Shown: positions 1,439-50,514 of the stretch, piece after piece
Position numbering within the stretch: the first letter of the stretch is position 1
Layout of the letters: each line of letters opens with the position of its first letter
Source: Eledone cirrhosa
Lineage: Eukaryota
Assembly: GCA_964016885.1 (NCBI GenBank)
Contig: OZ024744.1
Span: 66,092,001 to 66,156,000, forward strand
Direction: 5' to 3'
DNA: 64,000 bases
The notes under the pieces: generated by a model
Seen by the model: only the letters and a program-made list of their open reading frames with translations
What the model was told of the DNA's origin: nothing
Databases searched by the model: none
Program-made: the position numbers and the translations under genes

Positions 1439-1489
<51 letters not shown>

Positions 1490-1684
1490 TGTAGTTGTCT
1501 GTGTGTGTCCTCATTTTTGCAAAGTCTATACAAATCCACATTTCTACTCCGATTGACTTCAAACTTGCATTTATATATTCCTTGCGGTCTAAAGATATTA
1601 ACTGCAGCTTTTATTTTTCAATTTTGTGTTGTTAAAGGAGTGTTAGGCGCCGGTTATCTATCTCTGTCGCGCCCTTATAATATA

Positions 1685-2960
1685 CTAGCAGTAAAGCCCG
1701 GCGTTGCTCGGGGTCGCTCAGTAGCTGTGTTAAAGTTACAATGTTAAGTTTCTTTTTTGGCTTAAAAACTGTAGTGTCTACTGTGCAGACTTGCATGTGG
1801 TGTTTTTGATTAATATTCCCTCAACCAACAATATGCCTTATGAAGTTAAGAAAACATAACGATAACCCGAATGTTATAACAAAAGAGGATGCTGGGGATA
1901 AAAACTGCACTGGTTATTTATTAACAAAGATCGAACATGTAAACACTGCAACGCAGATAAAAACATTAGCGTAACCAAATTATCAGTTATGTCTGTCTGC
2001 ACGCCTATATCACCTCTCTGCACGACTGTCTGTCTGCACGCCTATATCACCTCTCTGCACGACTGTCTGTCTGCACGCCTATATCACCTCTCTGCACGAC
2101 TGTCTGTCTGCACGCCTATATCACCTCTCTGCACGACTGTCTGTCTGCAGGCGTATATCACCTCTCTGCACGACTGTCTGTCTGCACGCGTATATCACCT
2201 CTCTGCACGACTGTCTGTCTGCACGCCTAACGAAATTTACAGATACATATATTTTAAATAAACTTATATAATTTTTGCTTTTTTTTTACGAAATATTTGC
2301 TTGTTTTACGTAGTCTTTAAATATACTTGTTTTCAAGTAAAAATATTGTTTTAAAAGGCTTTTAAATGGAAATGAAGCAAAACGGAAGCTTAGTGTTCGA
2401 ACTGATGAATTTTGCAGGTCAAAATTTTGCTGGCTCGACAACTGTTCGTGTATTGTGTTAATGTCATTTTAAACGCTGAGAAAGCCAGCGTAAAACGTAA
2501 GACGCTCAATGTAAACAGAACAAAGGGAAATAACTCGTCACTTACGCTCAAAAATCGATACATTAGATTCGATTTCGTCACATACGGTGGGTCAATTTGA
2601 AATATTTTTTTTCCGATGTCTTCGCTAGGGCTCAATGTACAAGTATAGCAATTTCGGTGCAATTCCATCAGAGATTCTAAGAGGAGATGTGTGCCAAAAA
2701 TCGATAGACAGACAGACAACCACAGCTTTATATATATAGAACAAAGGGAAATAACTCGTCACTTACGCTCAAAAATCGATAAATTAGATTCGATTTCGTC
2801 ACATAGGGTGGGTCAATTTGAAATATTTTTTTCCGATGTCTTCGCTAGGGCTCAATGTACAAGTATAGCAATTTCGGTGCAATTCCGTCAGAGATTCTAA
2901 GAGGAGATGTGTGCCAAAAATCGATAGACAGACAGACAACCACAGCTTTATATATATAGA
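1685..2960 (-). mobile_element. Non-autonomous Helitron nested in another Helitron, with a duplicated 220-bp 5' end
   Basis: Minus-strand 5' end A|TCTATATATATAAAGCTGTGGTTGTCTGTC at 2960; 3' hairpin CCCGAGCAACGCCGGG + CTAG at 1688-1685. 2521-2740 and 2741-2960 are near-identical tandem copies. Confidence 0.8.
1990..2228. repeat. 36-bp minisatellite (~6.5 units) inside the Helitron
   Basis: Unit CTGTCTGTCTGCACGCCTATATCACCTCTCTGCACGA-like is repeated directly with no variable spacers. Confidence 0.95.
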
Positions 2961-3144
2961 TGTCTGTATGTCTGGCTGTCTGCATTACGACATTATGATA
3001 AACATTGATGACGTATTATGTTCGCTATTTTCCGTTCATTGCCAGGGAACGTCTTCACGAACCAAAGTATCGTCTTCCTGTTTTCCTTCGGTTGCAACGT
3101 TTTTCGAAATATTTACTTCTGCGTTCACAGATTGATTTTTTTTT

Positions 3145-3195
3145 AGTTTCAGAAGATCCCGTTAAGGGTGAAAGCAGCGATTCTTTGCTTAAACT
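3145..3195 (+). ncRNA. Hammerhead-ribozyme-like motif with variant core CAGAAGA (family E)
   Basis: AGTTT-CAGAAGA-TCCCGTTAAGGGT-GAAA-GCAGCGATTCTTTGC-TT-AAACT. Stems I, II and III can pair; copies at 18090-18140(-) and 20682-20732(+). Confidence 0.65.
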
Positions 3196-3926
3196 TTAAT
3201 CTGTTATTTTAATATATAATATAAACGAGGCAAGCCAGCCCAGTTGCCATTTCTTGCCAATAAACGTTAACCCTTTGTGCGCCATTCATCTAACTGTAGA
3301 CCAACAAATACGTAGCGTTGACAAGAACAATGGCGAATGAATCTTCGAGGTAAGCAGATTCCTCCCGAGCTGTTAGTTCACGCGGGATTCTCTGCTACAC
3401 CTTTTCGTATTAATACCGAACAACGTACTGCTGGTCACTCCTTCCTCCAAAAGCCGTACAAAGCGGACATGTGCATCGGGTGCAAATCTACACCAGGCCT
3501 ACGCGAAAATTTCGCAAGGGTCTGTACCGAGAGGGATAGAGAGAAAGAGTAACTTAGTGGAAAGATTGCGAATGAACTAGTGATGTAAGTAGCCTACGCC
3601 TTATTGCTATGACACTGGAACCTTCTGCCAACTTAACCTGTGACTTTCTCTTTCACATTTATTCCAATAAGCCAAAACAGACTGGAAACGCCGGGGGACA
3701 ACTATCACAGAAGGAGTATGAAAAGAAGGGGCTCAACAATATTTCTATGAACAATGCACGTAGACAGCTAAACTGTACTTTCAACTTCTTAATTTTCTCC
3801 AAATAAAACAAGTTTCCTGTCGGTATATTTTCGTGAGTCTTTAACAGGCTCTCACAAATAAACGTTTGTCATTGGAGGTGCTATTACCAATGTTCTTACC
3901 CGTTCAACGCCGGGATACACTGCTAG

Positions 3927-3983
<57 letters not shown>

Positions 3984-4323
3984 TAGGGTGTGGTAAAAAC
4001 CAGCTAGACCAAAACCCACCAGATTACTCGATACTTGGGGTATATATATATATATATATATATAAGAAAAAGGTCAAGGGCTCGTAAATACTCAACTAAC
4101 GTATTAAGTACCTTTTTTAACTGTGGCCACTTCCCGATATATATTAGGAATCCACCTATATATATATATATATATATATACATATATAAATATATATATA
4201 TAGGAGGTGAGTTTTATTGTAGCACAATAAAGCAATGCAAATATCGGATAAGTAGCACTCAACAATTTATAGGACTGGAGTATAAATAATATAAAATCAA
4301 AAGATGGTTAAAAGGGTTCCATG

Positions 4324-4394
4324 TATTTTATTATGCGCATTTCAAAAACAAATATCATCATGGGATGATATTTGCGTCCTCATCAGATAAAATA
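4324..4394 (-). ncRNA. Type I hammerhead ribozyme in PLE pLTR (family A)
   Basis: Minus strand reads TATTTTAT-CTGATGA-GGACGCAAATATCATCCCATGATGATATTTGTTTTT-GAAA-TGCGCA-TA-ATAAAATA. It has an 8-bp stem I and a short palindromic stem III typical of PLE minimal HHRs. Confidence 0.88.
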
Positions 4395-5245
4395 GGGAGA
4401 CATGATATGAAGGTTAAAAAACACTTGCGAGCAAGATTGGAAAAAAGGAAAGGAAGGGGGGGGGGGGAGAAAAGGTAAGGAAGAGGAAGAAAAAATATAG
4501 ATAGAAGAAAAAAAAATAATAAGGAAAGGATGACGGAGGAGGAGTATAAGAAGGAAGGATGAGAGAGGAGGCGAAAATGAGTGAGAGAGAGAGAGATAAC
4601 CTTTAATACTGAGAAACACTGTCTCACAGAGAAAATTGAAAAAAAACCGTTGTAAGATAATACATAATTTTAAAAAAATTAAGAAATTAAAAGTTAATGA
4701 GGTTTATGAATGGTGATGCTTATGGTTAAAGAAGGGTTTAATAAGATGTGCGAAAAGGAATTTATTAAAATGTATTATTAAAATAAAATATATTAAGAAG
4801 ATAAGGTGAATGAAGATAAGGTTAAATGAATTATGAACTTAGAGGAATTAATTAGGGTCCGAGTTTGTTTCAATATATTGTAATAGGAAAAAGTAAATAA
4901 TAGAGTTAATACGAGCATGGAAAGAGAGAAGGAAGAAAAAATATAACGTCAAAAAAATATGTTTACAAAATTTCTCTAATGGTAATATTAGTATATATTA
5001 AAAATAAAAATTTGTATGGCCGAGAATATAATGAAAATGCTATAGTGAGTTATAAGATGAATTAAGAAGTAATTGAGAAGTAAAAGTTGCAGATTAAAGA
5101 TTAGAAATTAAAAAAAGAAGAAAAATTAGGGGACCGCTAACGACATAGTATGAGTAATATTGTATAAGGTAGAAAGATGGGTATATTTAAAAAAAATATA
5201 AAAGTGTTTGAGAAAAAGATTTTAAACTAATTATGTAGTAAGATA

Positions 5246-10171: not shown

Positions 10172-12127
10172 ATATATTTCTTTATTAGCCACAGGGGCAC
10201 AAAAGAAGGGGACAAATACAAAGGGGAAAGTTTACATACAATAAAAACGTGTAAAATGTTATCACAGATGGAATTTAAAAAGTTAGTCGATTTTCCCCAA
10301 TAGAGGGAGACAGTTTATATGAGTAACACATACCCCCGAAAAAAATGTGCAACCCTCATCTCCAGGAGTACGAAGAGTTTGTACTCCCTTCCTCTCCTCC
10401 TCCTTTTCCTCAACCAACAGGCTGATATAGAGAGAAGGCCCATTCACTCGGGCCATTCTCGCCACTTTCACCCACCTTTCATAAAACTTGATGGGGTACA
10501 GCACCTCTCTCTCCATCCTGATTCTTCTTCCAAAGTGGTATTTGAAAAAAAGAATCAGTTGTTGGCCGGAGAGAAAGGTGTCTGACCTCAGCCCTTTCAA
10601 CCTTGTCCACCATACAACCTCTTTCGTCATAGCTATCACACAAAGGAAAACCGCCTCTCCTTCGTTTTTGAAGGAGGGTGGCGGTTTGATCGTGACAATG
10701 GACTCGGTGGTCAACTGGACTGGTCCCACCCGCGACAATAGTCGTTCTACATAGCCCCACAGGTCAGTCACGCCCGGGCAGTGTATGAATGCGTGCGCGA
10801 CGGTTTCTTCGTCTTGCACGCACCTCGGACAGATCTTTTTTGCAGGGTCCCTGCCCGGGCGCCCATGTCTGTAGAGCTTGTCTCGAACTGGTAGAGCTCC
10901 TCGGTAGCACTGCCAGGCCAGGGACTTTTGGAAGTTGTCCATCGGTCCCGGGCGGAAGGTCCTACCGAACAGACTGGCCAGTTCATCTTCCTCTACGCCT
11001 AGAGTTTCACCGAGCGCGTCGTCGCACTTGCTGCGGACTAACCCTCTATAGAATGACGAAGTGGAGTCTCCACTGATTGCCGGGTCCGCCTGCCAGAGGG
11101 CTGTGAGCGCCTGAGCACATTCGATGTGCCAGTCGCCCATTTTCCTCGGTCTTTGCTTGACCCAGGACTGCAGCTCGGTCAGCGAGACGAGTCGTGGGAA
11201 GGTTCGCCTCACGAACGGGGCCCACACCGGTTGTCCGGTGAGGAATACGTAGAGATGCCGCAGCCTGAGCGCGTGTTTGCGCATCGTCAACCACGGCATC
11301 CGCAACCCTCCGTTAGAAGGGTATTGGCAGCAGATGGATCTTCTCACCAAAGGAGTCCGCCTCTTCCAAAGGAATCGGAAGAGCGCGCGCTCCATTTTGG
11401 CGAGCGTTTTGGCTGGACAAGGCACGACGGTCAAGCGGTAGTAGATGGCGGACGCTATAAAAGTGTTCGTCACCTCCGCTCGACCTTTCAAGGATAGTTT
11501 GCACTCGGCCCACTTCTGGGTGAGTGCAAACACCTTGGCCGTCACTTCGTTCCAGTTCTTCTCCACCTGGAGGTCCGGACCAAACCAGACCCCGAGCAGC
11601 TTTACCGGTCCTTCCGTCCAGCGTCCGACGACGCCATCGGAAGGCATCGGTCTGCCTCTCCACGATCCGAGTTGCAAACCGATGGACTTGTCCCGGTTCA
11701 GCTTCGCTCCTGTGACACTTTCGTATTCCTTCAGTAAGGTGCCGACTTCCTCGATTTGCGAGGCATTCGACACCATTACTGTCACGTCGTCGGCGTAGGC
11801 CGACGCCGCTTTCCGCAGTCCCGGTTCCAGAGGGATGCCCTGCAATAGCTCCAGCTTCCGCAGTAGTGGCTCGAGAGTCAGTACGTACAGAAGGGAGGAG
11901 AGAGGGCATCCCTGTCGAATGGATCGCGTAATATGGAACGGCTCCGAGAGGAAGCCGTTCACCTTGACCCTTGAGCAGATGTTGCTGTTGTGCATTGCAG
12001 CAATCCAGCCCCTGAACACGGGTCCGAAGCCTGCCGCCTCGAGCACCGCATCCAGGTAACGATGGTCAACCCTATCGAAAGCCTTAGACTGATCCAAGTT
12101 GATCAGGGCCCCACCGAAGCCGGGTGG
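10172..12127 (-). mobile_element. Tx1/L1-clade non-LTR retrotransposon, 5'-truncated ORF2 (RT + zinc finger), inserted in (TATC)n
   Basis: LDQSKAFDRVDH, RQGCPLS, YADD and CPRC..ETVAHAFIHC in an uninterrupted frame. The 3' UTR ends GTGGCTAATAAAGAAA. (TATC)n lies on both sides, and ORF residues from 12128-12337 are microsatellite/flank. Confidence 0.95.
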
Positions 12128-12210
<83 letters not shown>

Positions 12211-13139
12211 TTGAAATCCAGAGGAATTTTAAAGAGACAATGAAATAGTAAATAAGGTTGTCAATGCGGGTTTTGTAGAAGAAAGAATGGTAATGTAGCG
12301 GCGGTAAGAAGTTTGAGATGAAGAAATAAGAATTCAAAGAGGCATAAACTGTGGGGATATTTTTTCCTTCTGTAGTTTGGTCAATTTGAACAGGAAGAGT
12401 CAGAAAGAATTCGGAGAATTTTTGAGAAAAAAGCTCAGGGTGAGCTTAGCTCTGTGTGAGAATGTACCTGTCTTGATACGTGAGTGTGTGCATGTGTGTA
12501 TATGTCGGTATGTACGTGTGTGCATTTTTAAAAAGTGATGTCTTAGGCTTGTTTGTGTGTGCGTGAGTGTACGTGTGCGTGCACATGCGTACGTGTGTAT
12601 GTCTGTTATCGAAGTGAGTTGAACTGGGTGTTTATGTTCGTTTGTTATGGTGTGTGTACAAGGTTTGTGTGTTTGCATTGTGTGTGTGCATATGAACCAG
12701 TGCCTGCGTACCAAGTGTGTGTGTATGTTATAATGTTAGTGTGCGTATGTCTGTGATTTTTATATGTGTATGTTGCATATTATTACAGCGGGTGTGCATA
12801 TATATATGTGTATGACTATTTACATGCGTATGTTCATGTCTAGATGTATGTGTGTCCAAGTGTGTGTATGTATTCAAAGTACACGTGTGTTAGTGTATGT
12901 GGTGTATTAACGTGTCTATATGTGCGTGTTAGAATGGTGAGTATGTGTACCCGTGTGATGCGTCTCTATGTGTGAGTTCGTGTTTGCTTGTGTGTGTATG
13001 CGAGCGCCGGCGTAAGGTTGCGTGTTGAATTAGTATGCACGTGTGCGCATAGAGTATGTATAAGGACGCAAACATGTGGAATCGTGTGAGGGAGGAACAC
13101 GTGTGGTGTTGATCGTAAAGGCATGTGTGCGGTCTCGGT

Positions 13140-16805: not shown

Positions 16806-17108
16806 CTAGTAGAATGGCCCGGTGTTGCTCGGGATTTGCTCTAGGGTTCTTATATATTTGATACATATTTATCCTTCTCGAGCCTCGTGAAGTAAATACG
16901 TTTGTTTATATTTTGTTATTGTGTATGCAAAATTATCTGTACACGAATATATAAATAACAGTACAGAGAAGTACGGAATACCTGGACCTCGGATTGGTGT
17001 ATACATTTTGTGCTTAGAAAAGAAGTTCGAAGAAAATCAATACTTTATCGCGAAATAAATACTTTTGTTTATATGTGTATGCAAAAATATCTGTACACGA
17101 ATATATAG

Positions 17109-17189
<81 letters not shown>

Positions 17190-17991
17190 TTCGTTTCTGA
17201 ATTTGTTTAGCAAGATTCTTTATCTGAAATCGTGTGTTGAAACCGATATTGTTATACTTTGGGAGGGTCATGTTGCCAATAAGAAACACACGCACACAAC
17301 ACACACACAGAAACAAAATGGCGTAGGACAGAACAAAGGAGAGGCACAGAAACAAAGAAAGGAATCCCCAGTCACTGAAGAACTATGACTATATATAAAC
17401 AACTATCTGGTTGTGGAACCAACCAACCAACCAGAAATTTATAAATTTATAAATATATAATAAATTGAAGTGAAAGAAACTGGTGCGTGTGTTTCTTATT
17501 GGCAACATGACCCTCCCAAAGTATAACAATATATATATATATATATAGAGAGAGAGATTACAGTAATCAAAGTTCAGTTTAAGTCATTTATTTGCTTACA
17601 ATTGTTTCCTCCAAACCGAGGTTTGGATTCTTCGGAGCAACTATTTATAACATACTTGACCTCCTTTTCAACCCAAGAGACACATAAAACATATGTGTCT
17701 CTTGGGTTGAAAAGGAGGTCAAGTATGTTATAAATAGTTGCTCCGAAGAATCCAAACCTCGGTTTGGAGGAAACAATTGTAAGCAAATAAATGACTTAAA
17801 CTGAACTTTGATTACTGTAATCTCTATATAACTGCTCTGTATAACAACTGATGTTATTGCATTGAGCTATTTAACTTACTGGTAATAGGATAGTAATTAA
17901 AGACTATCTCTCACTATTTAGGGTTTGTGTATATATAATATATTACCATCAAAGGTTTTATTGCATACATAACCATAAATAGTACCCTTAA

Positions 17992-18078
<87 letters not shown>

Positions 18079-18523
18079 TAACAGATTAAAGTTTAAGCAA
18101 AGAATCGCTGCTTTCACTCTTAACGGGATCTTCTGAAACTAAAATAATAAATCTGTGAACGCAGAAGTAAATATTTCGAAAAACGTTACACACTATATGT
18201 ATATATATACACACACCGCGTCATAATGACGTAATGCAGACAGCCAGGCATACAGACAGATATTATAAGGGCGCAACGTAATATCTATGTATCTATCTAA
18301 AAAGAGAAAGACTAAGAGAGAGAGAGAAAGAGATCGCTAAATCGCCTAATGCGGACCCTAGGGCATTGAAAATTTGAAATTTCTTTTGCTCAGAACACTC
18401 AATAGGACCATAAGTATTACATGTGTAAAGTTTGAAAACAATCAGTTGGGTGGTTCTCGAGTTTTAGTGATTGAACAGACAGGCAGACAGACAAACAAAT
18501 ATTCTCTGTTTTAGTAATATAGA
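16806..18523 (-). mobile_element. Non-autonomous Helitron with PLE-derived insertions
   Basis: 5' A|TCTATATTACTAAAACAGAG..GTCTGTCTG at 18523; 3' CCCGAGCAACACCGGG hairpin + CTAG at 16809-16806. Confidence 0.7.
17553..17825. repeat. Near-perfect palindrome (134-bp arms, 5-nt loop) carrying a hammerhead motif in each arm (family C)
   Basis: Arms are 17553-17686 and 17692-17825. The + arm 17738-17786 reads TTGCT-CCGAAGA-ATCCAAACCTCGGTTTGGAG-GAAA-CAATTG-TA-AGCAA, mirrored at 17592-17640. Confidence 0.9.
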
Positions 18524-20110: not shown

Positions 20111-21261
20111 ATAGAATAAATAAAAAATAAATAAAAGAAAGATATCTATGTATCTCTGTGTATATATAAACATCTTATGTATGTATGTATGTATGTATGT
20201 ATGTATGTATGTATGTATGTATGTATGTATGTATGTTATCTCTTTCTCTTAATTTCGAGTATATTTTTTTGTCCGGCCACCTTCCTGGTGGCAAGGTTGT
20301 AAAAGAAAAGAAATTGTCATCCCTTGAATCGCAAGAATGTTTTGCAAATTTTGAAGGTGCCTGCTATCGCAGCCATTTGTAGACTATGAATTAGGGAGCT
20401 GCGCTATAAACATCTTATGTATGTATGTATGTATGTATGTATGTATGTATGTATGTATGTATGTATGTATGTATGTATGTATACAGTAGATTATAATAAA
20501 CAACCACAGGCACAAATACATACACATATAAATATACACTTACATACCCCCACCCACACACACACATATATATATATAGTAATAATAATAAATGTGAAGA
20601 CTAAAATTCGAAGAGGGCTCGACAAGGATAATATATATATATATAATTATATAAAACCATAGAGCAAATATTTAAATAAATAGTTTCAGAAGATCCCGTT
20701 AAGGGTGAAAGCAGCGGTTCTTTGCTTAAAGATTAATCTGTTATTTTAATATATATTCTCTCTCGTTCACGATTTCACCGAATTCATAGAAATTTGGGAC
20801 TTGACCCCTTCTTCCTCACTTTTCGTTGCTTCACCATCTTTGTTTGTTTACACTCGTGTCCCCTTTATTTACGTGTCCCAACGACTTTTTTTAGCCGTTG
20901 CTCGCACCAACCGGAGGTATATGGTCTTTAAAGCGAGGAAATACAAATGATGGTTGGAAGATCACTGATGAAGGACTAACTTTATTCATATATATATATA
21001 TATATATATTTATGTTTGTGTGTGTGTGTGTGTGTATAAACTTAAGGAAATTAGAACGGAAACAAGGGAAAACGAAAAACAATTTTTAAGGCAAAACCTT
21101 AAAAAATGTTTTAAAAAAATAAGTGTACAAACGAAGGACACAGAACTCCATGGTCATCAGCCGTGAGATGGACTTAGGCAGTTTCGACCCCCTACCAACG
21201 GTCAGTGAAATAAGTGACGAGAGACAAAACATTAATTAATCGCAATATATATATTTAAGTG

Positions 21262-49005: not shown

Positions 49006-49760
49006 CTAGCAGTGGTACTCGGCGTTGCACGGGATAAGGTATTTTGGAACACGGGCCGCCAACAGACCTAATCGTGGAAAAACTGCATGCGCGGACAATA
49101 TGTAAAGAAAATAAACCGAATACTCTGATGGCTGGATAATCGTTAAGATTTTCCTCGATGATGCAGGAAAAATGCCGGTTTTCACCTAATGCAGGCCCTA
49201 GGGGATCAAGAAAATGAATTTTTTTTATGTGTATATAATATGCCTTGAAATTTCGGGAAAATCGGCTAGACGTAACGCCTCAAAAAAGCTGAAAAAATGA
49301 AGTTTTTCACCTAAATGCGGGCCCTAGGCCATAAAAAGTTGGATTTTCTTTGCTCATAGTGTGAAGAAGAGACTGACTAATACATAGTTACAATTTCAAG
49401 GAAATCAGTCTGACGTAACACCTAAAAAGAACCCCTAAAAACTTGAAAAAACGGAGTTTTTCAACTAATGCGGGCCGTAGGGAATCAAAAAGTTGAATTT
49501 TTTTATGTGCATAACATCCCCTCAAACATAAGTAATACACATGTAAAGTTTGAAAAAATTGGTTGGGTACTTCTCGAGTTTTAGGGATTCAAACTCACAG
49601 ACACACACACACATCCTCAGGGAAGTGATGTAATGCAGACAGTCAGACATACAGACAGATATTATAAGGGCGCGTTCTGGACGCAGAGGGAATTGTGGGA
49701 AGTGACGTAATGCAGACAGTCAAACATACAGGCAGCTATTATAAGGGCACAATGTTATAT
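49006..49760 (-). mobile_element. Non-autonomous Helitron (same family as 31220-32084), next to a hAT-MITE end at ~48821
   Basis: CTAG end at 49006-49009 with CCCGTGCAACGCCGAG hairpin; reverse-complement match to 31460-32084. Confidence 0.85.
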
Positions 49761-50514
49761 GTATTCAGAAACAAATGGTTAAACCTACGTAAAGGAAAGT
49801 TTATTCCTGAGAAATGTTCACATACCAATGACTAAGTTCAGCATTAGTAAAGTAGATATACTAGGGAGGGAGTGGAAGGTGTTTAGGGCACTTTTATCTC
49901 TTTCTGTTAGTAAATATTTATAAGAGAGAGAAAGAGAGGAAGAGTATGTGTGGCCAAACAGATATATGTGTGTGTGAATCGCTAGAATTTGGAAGTATTT
50001 TAAATATGTATGTGTGTATACATTTGTATGTGAATGTGTATGCTTGTGTAAAATACTTAAAATTACAGACTTCTCAAGTAAATATTCAAAACTGTAAAAT
50101 GTTGACATTTTTCATAGTGCATCGTTTCTTTCAGCACGTCAGATGTTGGGGTAGTTTTAAATTTAAGGTTCTTCCAATATTTATCATGTCTATTTTTCAT
50201 TTTATTGGTTTGTCTTTGTCTAAAAAAAAAAACCTCCTCTTGGTAATCAATTCCCAGCTTTTATTGATTTGGTTTGAGAAAGTTTGCTGTCTTGTTAGCT
50301 CCTTAAATAATTTATGTAGCCGGCTTCACGTTAATGACTGATGTGATTTTAACATCTCTTTTATTTATTTTTAAGGGGCAACTCTGTTTGTTGTTTTATT
50401 TTACTATAGACCTTTATCACATTTACACATCATGTGTCTATGTCTCAGGAAAGAATCGCTGGACAGATTTTATTGCGGGGGGGGGGGTGTAAAAACAATC
50501 GGCAGGTGACTCAG

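What the first reader, a model, noticed from the sequence alone, without database searches (positions are those of the whole stretch)
3095..3215. Helitron family appears to carry a captured hammerhead module with a CAGAAGA core
Seen: the same ~120-bp block (AACGTTTTTCGAAATATTTACTTCTGCG..HHR..TTATTTTAATA) lies just downstream of the same Helitron internal segment (TGCATTACG.CATTATGA) in two Helitrons, 1470-3926(+) and 16806-18523(-). A free copy is at 20682-20732. All three have U4 changed to A in the core while keeping the stems. Inference: rolling-circle elements are spreading a PLE-derived ribozyme or ribozyme relic.
Basis: partly seen in the sequence, partly recalled or inferred. Interest (0 to 1): 0.7.

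Follow-up and report, generated by a model that had tools for sequence, protein, structure and literature searches.

The report
Penelope hammerhead hitchhiking in Helitrons
The block is the tail end of a very abundant retrotransposon and holds a hammerhead-shaped RNA motif with one core letter changed; a piece of it also sits inside rolling-circle DNA transposons (Helitrons) at over a thousand places, likely copied along as passive cargo, and whether the altered RNA still cuts itself is untested.

Summary
The block is real and has a parent. It is the 3' repeat (pLTR) end of a Hydra-clade Penelope-like retroelement (PLE); a full-length copy has the motif in both pLTRs around a reverse transcriptase ORF. 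A 28-mer of the motif has 20,081 exact genome matches, mostly truncated or inverted PLE insertions, and the 'free' copy is one of these. Two non-autonomous Helitron subfamilies carry it with fixed junctions (997 and 80 matches), roughly a tenth of all copies. The motif has Hydra-type hammerhead architecture except U4A. A4 is ancestral in the PLE lineage, not a Helitron change: 184 native non-A matches, and A in 64 of 69 hits from related, older subfamilies. Between PLE subfamilies only loops and flanks change, while Helitron-borne copies decay evenly (with caveats). Reading: retroelement cargo, likely passive, which is known for Helitrons. The novel part is a U4A hammerhead fold apparently kept by selection in the PLE; cleavage is untested. 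The scan's notes held nothing on this sequence.

The parts
1470..1684 (+). 5' part of non-autonomous Helitron subfamily H1; its start is merged in a (TA)n run and it ends in the first half of the shared internal segment
   Evidence: same 5' part in most of 20 H1 loci
1685..2960 (-). Nested, different Helitron (TC start at 2960, hairpin and CTAG end at 1685) inserted between A1684 and T2961
   Evidence: uninterrupted H1 copies
2961..3008 (+). Second half of the Helitron internal segment shared by H1 and H2
   Evidence: 89.6% to 18267-18221; 979 exact genome matches of a 25-mer
3009..3214 (+). 5'-truncated pLTR piece of a Hydra-clade PLE (subfamily B), ending at the PLE's own short 3' end
3127..3204 (+). 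Type I hammerhead-like motif: outer stem I 3127-3135/3196-3204, inner stem I 3145-3149/3191-3195, core 3150-3156 with A4 at 3151, U-U pair 3157/3169, stem II 3158-3160/3166-3168, GAA 3170-3172, stem III 3173-3177/3185-3189, predicted cut after U3190 (CUU)
   Evidence: sequence; architecture as in the Hydra table; outer stem I, II and III in the centroid fold, inner stem I not
3215..3926 (+). 3' part of Helitron H1 with hairpin 3899-3914 and CTAG|T end
18188..18523 (-). 5' part of Helitron subfamily H2: A|TC start, internal segment, (TG)n(TA)n tract
18071..18187 (-). Shorter PLE pLTR piece with the hammerhead-like motif (18156-18081); stem II has a mismatch
16806..17113 (-). 3' part of Helitron H2 with hairpin and CTAG|T end; includes a second PLE piece, the inverted tail (16886-16834); separated from the module by about 0.9 kb of later insertions
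20577..20679 (-). Inverted PLE tail, the upstream half of an inverted PLE insertion
   Evidence: against L031 2490-2582; same layout in L003, L010, L028
20681..20755 (+). 5'-truncated PLE end with the motif (the 'free' copy); stem I 3' strand mutated

Best explanation
The module is the 3' pLTR end of a high-copy Hydra-clade Penelope-like retroelement whose hammerhead motif has A instead of U at core position 4 throughout the lineage; a 5'-truncated piece of it sits in non-autonomous Helitrons at over a thousand places, likely acquired once and then copied as passive DNA cargo by rolling-circle transposition. Shown: parent element, copy numbers, shared junctions, Helitron ends, ancestry of A4. 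Inferred: (a) the piece entered by ordinary PLE retrotransposition into an AT-rich spot of a Helitron, because its 3' edge is the PLE's own end at TA; (b) one acquisition followed by deletions and end-swapping gave H1, H2 and the minor junction types; (c) the motif does nothing for the Helitron; (d) in the PLE the fold is still under selection, probably as a weak or protein-assisted ribozyme or as an RNA handle for the PLE protein.
For: Parent: L031 has the motif at 2429 and 5688 around a 645-aa ORF with a YRDD motif and 912 homologs among 7999 candidates scored; Hydra features match. Copies: 20,081; 2-3 of the first 30 hits are Helitron-borne by eye. H2: 997 exact junction matches; of 30 read, 23 have the 5' end, 23 the 3' junction, 18 the CTAG end, 15 both ends, and three are head-to-tail. 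H1: 80 matches at up to 1 mismatch; 18 of 20 read carry the motif. 28 of 30 loci picked by the internal segment and 26 of 30 picked by the Helitron 3' part have the PLE piece next to them. A4: 184 native non-A matches, first 100 = 39 G, 36 T, 25 C; 64 of 69 in older subfamilies; 24 A, 1 G, 0 T among the 25 of 70 flank-anchored loci that keep the stem I 5' strand (by eye). Helitron copies vary evenly: core 27/759, stems 77/1656, loops 39/828, and L093, L103 and L108 share stem-breaking changes (by eye). Precedent: bat Helitrons carry retrotransposons and retroposed inserts (PMC4224331, passages).
Against: No clean empty Helitron was found: 0 of 30 from either anchor; the two module-less H2 loci that kept both sides hold other inserted or inverted DNA, so capture of a pre-existing PLE remnant is not excluded. 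The 5' junctions differ among subfamilies, which also fits several acquisitions. Pfam did not name the RT or GIY-YIG domain, so the Hydra call rests on motifs read by eye. The tally includes some fold-back copies in the PLE set and some loci counted twice in the Helitron set. No compensatory base-pair change was seen inside the lineage, and folding energy is unremarkable.
Confidence: 0.85

Rival explanations
1. The Helitron captured a PLE remnant that was already in the genome (3'-end bypass or template switch), instead of the PLE inserting into the Helitron.
For: H2 holds a second PLE piece (inverted tail) right before its hairpin, and its 3' parts are mosaic, including a helicase-like fragment in L069. 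With about 20,000 PLE ends available, capture is easy. End bypass is shown for Helraiser (PMC4778049, abstract). No empty site found.
Against: The piece ends exactly at the PLE's short 3' terminus next to TA in H1, H2 and the minor types, and carries no recognisable host flank.
Confidence: 0.35
2. H1, H2 and the minor junction types arose from separate PLE insertions into related Helitrons, each then amplified.
For: The PLE piece starts at several different pLTR offsets, from about 39 to 139, in different groups; H1 and H2 have different 5' and 3' parts.
Against: All follow the same internal segment, in the same orientation, and carry subfamily-B letters; L098 joins an H1-like 5' junction to the H2 3' part.
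Confidence: 0.2
3. The U4A motif is a dead relic in the PLE as well; its stability reflects a young lineage or a sequence-level protein-binding site, not an RNA fold.
For: U4 is a conserved core base and U4C lowers activity considerably in vitro (PMC3088659). Hammerhead cleavage is not needed for PLE insertion in vitro (PMC11167929). Copies end about 24 nt past the predicted cut, so uncut RNA was copied. No covariation inside the lineage.
Against: Majority changes between L031 and the older subfamilies fall in 11 of 41 unpaired non-core columns and 0 of 47 core or paired columns (9 anchor columns left out). Position 7, the free position of the hammerhead, toggles (16 of 69) while 4 stays A.
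Confidence: 0.35
4. The hammerhead is functional for the Helitron (for example processing read-through transcripts) and was selected there.
For: The piece is present in nearly all members sampled (28 of 30, 26 of 30) and the shortest common junction still keeps the whole motif.
Against: Even decay across core, stems and loops; a sub-lineage spread with broken stem I and II pairs; Helitrons move as DNA (established knowledge).
Confidence: 0.05

Closest known systems
Hydra-clade PLEs and their hammerheads (Craig et al. 2021, PMC8557442; section 11 and supplementary Files S1-S2 read)
   Same: Short single ORF, RWK-like and DKT motifs, CxCX5C linker, CxxC and CxH motifs, (TA)n targets, type I hammerhead near the 3' end. 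U-U flanking stem II occurs in 14 of 26 listed Hydra rows and U at the cut site in 10 of 26.
   Different: All 26 listed rows have CUGA (they were found with a canonical descriptor); here CAGA. Stem III here is 5 bp with a 7-nt loop, not a short palindrome. About 20,000 copies.
PLE hammerhead variants (Cervera and De la Pena 2014, PMC4209133; parts 1-2 of 4 read)
   Same: Hammerheads in both pLTRs, mostly dispersed as truncated copies or opposite-strand pairs; low activity in vitro.
   Different: The core variant described in the text read is U3-A8 covariation; no U4A there.
Natural hammerhead core variants (Perreault et al. 2011, PMC3088659; section 8 and passages read)
   Same: Rare core changes and U10.1-U11.1 can retain activity; U4C supports viroid infectivity.
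   Different: 'U4A' does not occur in the main text; figures were not seen.
Helitrons amplifying nested retro-sequences (Thomas et al. 2014, PMC4224331; passages read)
   Same: Non-autonomous Helitrons carry retrotransposon pieces and retroposed inserts and multiply them.
   Different: There empty sites proved insertion; here none was found. The cargo is a ribozyme-bearing PLE end, at over 1,000 copies.
Non-LTR retrozymes (10.64898/2026.07.22.740005, abstract only)
   Same: Non-autonomous hammerhead sequences related to pLTRs.
   Different: Retrozymes are tandem arrays thought to move through RNA; these copies are single pLTR ends or sit inside DNA transposons.

Membership tests
Hydra-clade PLE (parent, L031) | Single RT ORF flanked by direct pLTRs | tested here: met
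   Motif at 2429 and 5688 around ORF 2612-4549 plus a frame-shifted C-terminal piece
Hydra-clade PLE (parent, L031) | RWK, DKT, CxCX5C, CxxC and CxH motifs; no N-terminal endonuclease | tested here: met
   RWR, DKT, CNCRNRVDC, CDLC and CKH read by eye
Hydra-clade PLE (parent, L031) | C-terminal GIY-YIG endonuclease by profile match | tested here: inconclusive
   No Pfam hit and no PDB hit; an IIY..AYTG..R motif by eye only
Hydra-clade PLE (parent, L031) | Insertion into (TA)n, inverted 5'-truncated copies, optional tail | tested here: met
   the tail here is about 85 nt, longer than the 30-40 nt cited
Hydra-clade PLE (parent, L031) | Placement in an RT phylogeny with named Hydra families | not tested
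   No named reference proteins were loaded
Type I hammerhead ribozyme | Three stems around the core in type I order | tested here: met
   Pairings by eye; outer stem I, II and III in the centroid; inner stem I not predicted
Type I hammerhead ribozyme | Core C3 U4 G5 A6 N7 G8 A9, G12 A13 A14, A15.1-U16.1, H17 | tested here: not met
   All met except U4, which is A
Type I hammerhead ribozyme | Compensatory covariation in stems | tested here: inconclusive
   Stems invariant, no compensatory change between subfamilies
Type I hammerhead ribozyme | Site-specific self-cleavage | not testable with these tools
   Needs an assay or RNA-end data
Non-autonomous Helitron | 5' TC, 3' CTRR, subterminal hairpin | tested here: met
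   H2: 23 of 30 match the 5' end motif, 18 of 30 the 3' end motif; H1 ends; window ends
Non-autonomous Helitron | Insertion between A and T without duplication | tested here: met
   Mostly A before TC and T after CTAG; the nested element splits A1684/T2961. Empty target sites of H1/H2 copies were not compared
Non-autonomous Helitron | Autonomous RepHel partner with matching ends | tested here: inconclusive
   Only a helicase C-terminal fragment downstream in L069, Pfam E 9e-4, below cut-off

The most novel reading that the evidence does not exclude
A whole PLE lineage (over 20,000 copies, several successive subfamilies) runs on a natural U4A hammerhead that still cleaves, perhaps only with the element's own protein, and that canonical ribozyme searches miss. 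Helitrons have seeded over a thousand extra copies of it, some of which could cut host transcripts.
Probability: 0.3. Interest if true: 0.6.

Novelty: new variant of a known kind. Interest (0 to 1): 0.38.

Why it matters
The Helitron part is an instance of a known process (retro-cargo amplified by rolling-circle elements) and matters mainly for repeat annotation and for over-counting ribozymes. The part worth a bench test is the PLE's own motif. What PLE hammerheads are for is open: cleavage was dispensable for insertion in vitro (PMC11167929). Here a successful lineage keeps the fold and every other core base but has lost U4. If it cleaves, it widens the natural hammerhead core; if it does not, it is a natural case of the fold being kept for something other than catalysis. 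The Helitron-borne copies give a built-in neutral control.

Tried and rejected
DNA search of the genome with the module found nothing because its words are too common; patterns were used instead. The repeat finder was swamped by microsatellites. Rfam gave no hammerhead. Naiad identity of the parent was considered and rejected (DKT, CxCX5C, endonuclease-like part at the C terminus). A terminal-inverted-repeat transposon was considered because of opposite-strand pairs and rejected: they are PLE inversions with variable junctions. A CUGA parent subfamily was sought: 1,061 hits, but 28 of 30 read are fold-back junctions, 1 a point mutant, 1 an unrelated motif. The pattern wrongly excluded the native base before the core (10 hits, 9 with A4); one search replaced it. 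Empty Helitrons were sought from two anchors and none was clean. No RNA holder was listed, which says nothing on expression. Lunse et al. (PMC5785218), on PLE hammerhead variants, is not held and may list U4 variants; supplementary figures of PMC4209133 and PMC3088659 were not seen. Searches for prior reports: hammerhead + Helitron (6 papers), hammerhead ribozyme + U4A + core (5), hammerhead + the core word (44 papers, 20 listed), Helitron + Penelope + captured (8); by listing none reports this case. A stricter re-tally (fold-backs and duplicate loci removed, shared changes by Helitron sub-lineage) was not completed, so those numbers keep their caveats.

Full report
Observation. The block lies at 3093-3223(+) and 18190-18061(-), 94.7% identical over 132 nt, with a partial third copy at 20681-20755. 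All three have A at hammerhead core position 4. Copy 2 has a stem II mismatch and copy 3 a damaged stem I strand, so the stems are not all kept. Rfam does not call a hammerhead and folding energy is ordinary. The window lies on contig C28 of a 3.0-Gb genome.

Parent. A 28-mer from the motif has 20,081 exact matches, against 0 for the reversed control. Of the first 30 hits most are 5'-truncated repeats ending in (TA)n, at one of two fixed 3' ends about 85 nt apart, often with an inverted copy upstream. Among 20 longer stretches chosen for paired hits, L031 has the motif twice, 3,259 nt apart, around a 645-aa ORF with YRDD and a frame-shifted C-terminal piece. The protein has 912 homologs among 7,999 candidates scored but no Pfam or PDB match. 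Its RWR, DKT, CxCX5C, CxxC and CxH motifs and (TA)n targeting match the Hydra clade of PLEs as defined in PMC8557442 section 11; that is by eye, without a tree. The window's third copy, an inverted tail plus a truncated pLTR, is a typical insertion of this element.

The motif. Against the Hydra hammerhead table (File S2) the order and spacing are the same: stem I, core, stem II flanked by U and U (14 of 26 Hydra rows), GAA, stem III, U at the cut site (10 of 26 rows), stem I. The two features that look odd at first, U-U and a CUU triplet, are thus normal for the clade, and U10.1-U11.1 is known to be tolerated (PMC3088659 section 8). The only core change is U4A. Stem III is longer than in the listed families.

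A4 is ancestral. With the native upstream bases, non-A at position 4 gives 184 matches; the first 100 are 39 G, 36 T, 25 C, a mutation spectrum and not a U subfamily. By comparison, 19 of the 30 hits have the native context with A, which scales to roughly 12,000-13,000. A looser canonical-core pattern gave 1,061 hits (control 4), but 28 of 30 read are fold-back junctions, about 25 centred on position 4, where the bases form a 7-nt near-palindrome; one arm then reads CUGA but lies in a long inverted repeat. A pattern for older related subfamilies (it also catches a few main-family copies) gave A in 64 of 69 hits, while position 7 is T in 16 of 69 and loop II varies (core and stems fixed by the pattern). 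Anchoring only on the 3' flank (176 hits; 70 read), the 25 copies that keep the stem I 5' strand have 24 A, 1 G, 0 T (by eye). In genomic contigs of run X1 no other letter reaches 5% at that place.

Selection. In one search (25 of 68 distinct older copies used, some of them fold-backs) the majority base differs from L031 in 4 of 22 flank, 3 of 7 internal-loop and 4 of 12 loop columns, and in 0 of 11 core, 0 of 24 inner-stem, 0 of 18 outer-stem (9 are the search anchor and uninformative), 0 of 2 U-U and 0 of 1 cut-site columns. That is 11 of 41 against 0 of 47. It suggests purifying selection on the fold with A4 in place, but columns are few, some loop differences depend on alignment, and no compensatory pair was seen. 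A stricter re-tally was not completed.

Helitrons. The copy-2 junction has 997 exact matches. Of 30 read, 23 match the 5' end motif, 26 the internal segment, 27 the motif, 23 the 3' junction, 18 the hairpin-CTAG end and 15 both ends; three are head-to-tail. The copy-1 junction has 80 matches at up to one mismatch; of 20 read (one is the window copy) 18 carry the motif and 12 show the hairpin end by a strict pattern. In the window this element is split by a nested Helitron at 1685-2960. Picking loci by the internal segment (979 matches), 28 of 30 have the PLE piece downstream; picking by the H2 3' part, 26 of 30 have it upstream. The 5' edge of the piece comes in several fixed lengths, the 3' edge is the PLE's short end, and all carry subfamily-B letters; B also exists as free PLE (4,400 matches of a B 27-mer; about 12-14 of 30 Helitron-linked by eye). 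So Helitron-borne copies number at least 1,000, probably about 2,000 by exact match, around a tenth of the total. They vary evenly over core (27/759), stems (77/1656) and loops (39/828) (69 of 73 used, some loci counted twice), and L093, L103 and L108 share a junction and two stem-breaking changes (by eye).

Mechanism. Most likely a subfamily-B PLE inserted, 5'-truncated, into an AT-rich spot of a non-autonomous Helitron; deletions and exchange of ends produced H1, H2 and minor types, which spread by rolling-circle transposition with the motif as passenger. Insertion versus capture is not decided: the two module-less H2 loci with both sides hold secondary DNA. In the PLE the fold likely still has a job. 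For another PLE the hammerhead cut only with protein present and cleavage was not needed for insertion in vitro (PMC11167929), and U4C lowers but does not abolish biological function in a viroid (PMC3088659). I put active cleavage by the A4 form at about 0.3 and a dead relic at about 0.35, with a non-catalytic but selected fold taking the rest.

Comparison and novelty. PLE hammerheads, the Hydra clade, and Helitrons amplifying retro-cargo (PMC4224331, passages) are all known. My searches listed no report of a Helitron-borne hammerhead or of a natural U4A PLE core, but Lunse et al. could not be read. The scan's own notes had nothing on this sequence; the eight genome notes shown concern a differently wired Naiad hammerhead and were not used. 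Verdict: new variant of a known kind, interest 0.38.

Noticed in passing
genome-wide; e.g. L014/L015, L017/L018, L171-L200: About a thousand PLE insertions are fold-backs centred on hammerhead core position 4, and many other truncation and inversion points cluster at the 5' side of the motif. This is likely a hotspot where reverse transcription stalls at the fold and pairs through a short palindrome; it recreates a CUGA core that would fool ribozyme searches.
   Followed up: partly
window 18809(-), 19303(+), 16104(+): A second PLE-like repeat with a canonical-core minimal hammerhead (long stem II, 2-bp stem III, CUU site).
   Followed up: no
window 1685-2960(-): Nested Helitron with a duplicated 5' part (2509-2740 and 2730-2960) and an internal 37-nt tandem repeat near 1990-2229.
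   Followed up: partly
window 17553-17825: A 273-nt near-perfect palindrome (98%) inserted inside the copy-2 Helitron.
   Followed up: no
window 49626-49764(-): The Helitron internal segment occurs twice without the PLE piece, in front of a different Helitron-like body; a possible relative of the progenitor.
   Followed up: partly
L201 4507, L202 1555(-), L207 2457: A separate repeat family with a canonical core, U-U flank and covarying 3-bp stem II; no parent ORF found nearby.
   Followed up: no
runs X4, X5, X6 laid on L031 5500-5752: Three runs labelled as other organisms each hold a single low-depth contig 97-99% identical to the pLTR, with A4 and no Helitron sequence. Contamination, a close relative or horizontal transfer; unexplained.
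   Followed up: no
L217 3438-5000: A more distant Hydra-like PLE (39-50% protein identity to L031) lies near a subfamily-B-like fragment; its hammerhead was not located.
   Followed up: no
L121, L126, L139, L141: A PLE-derived subfamily keeps the pLTR up to the outer stem I and then continues with unrelated sequence, lacking the hammerhead core.
   Followed up: no
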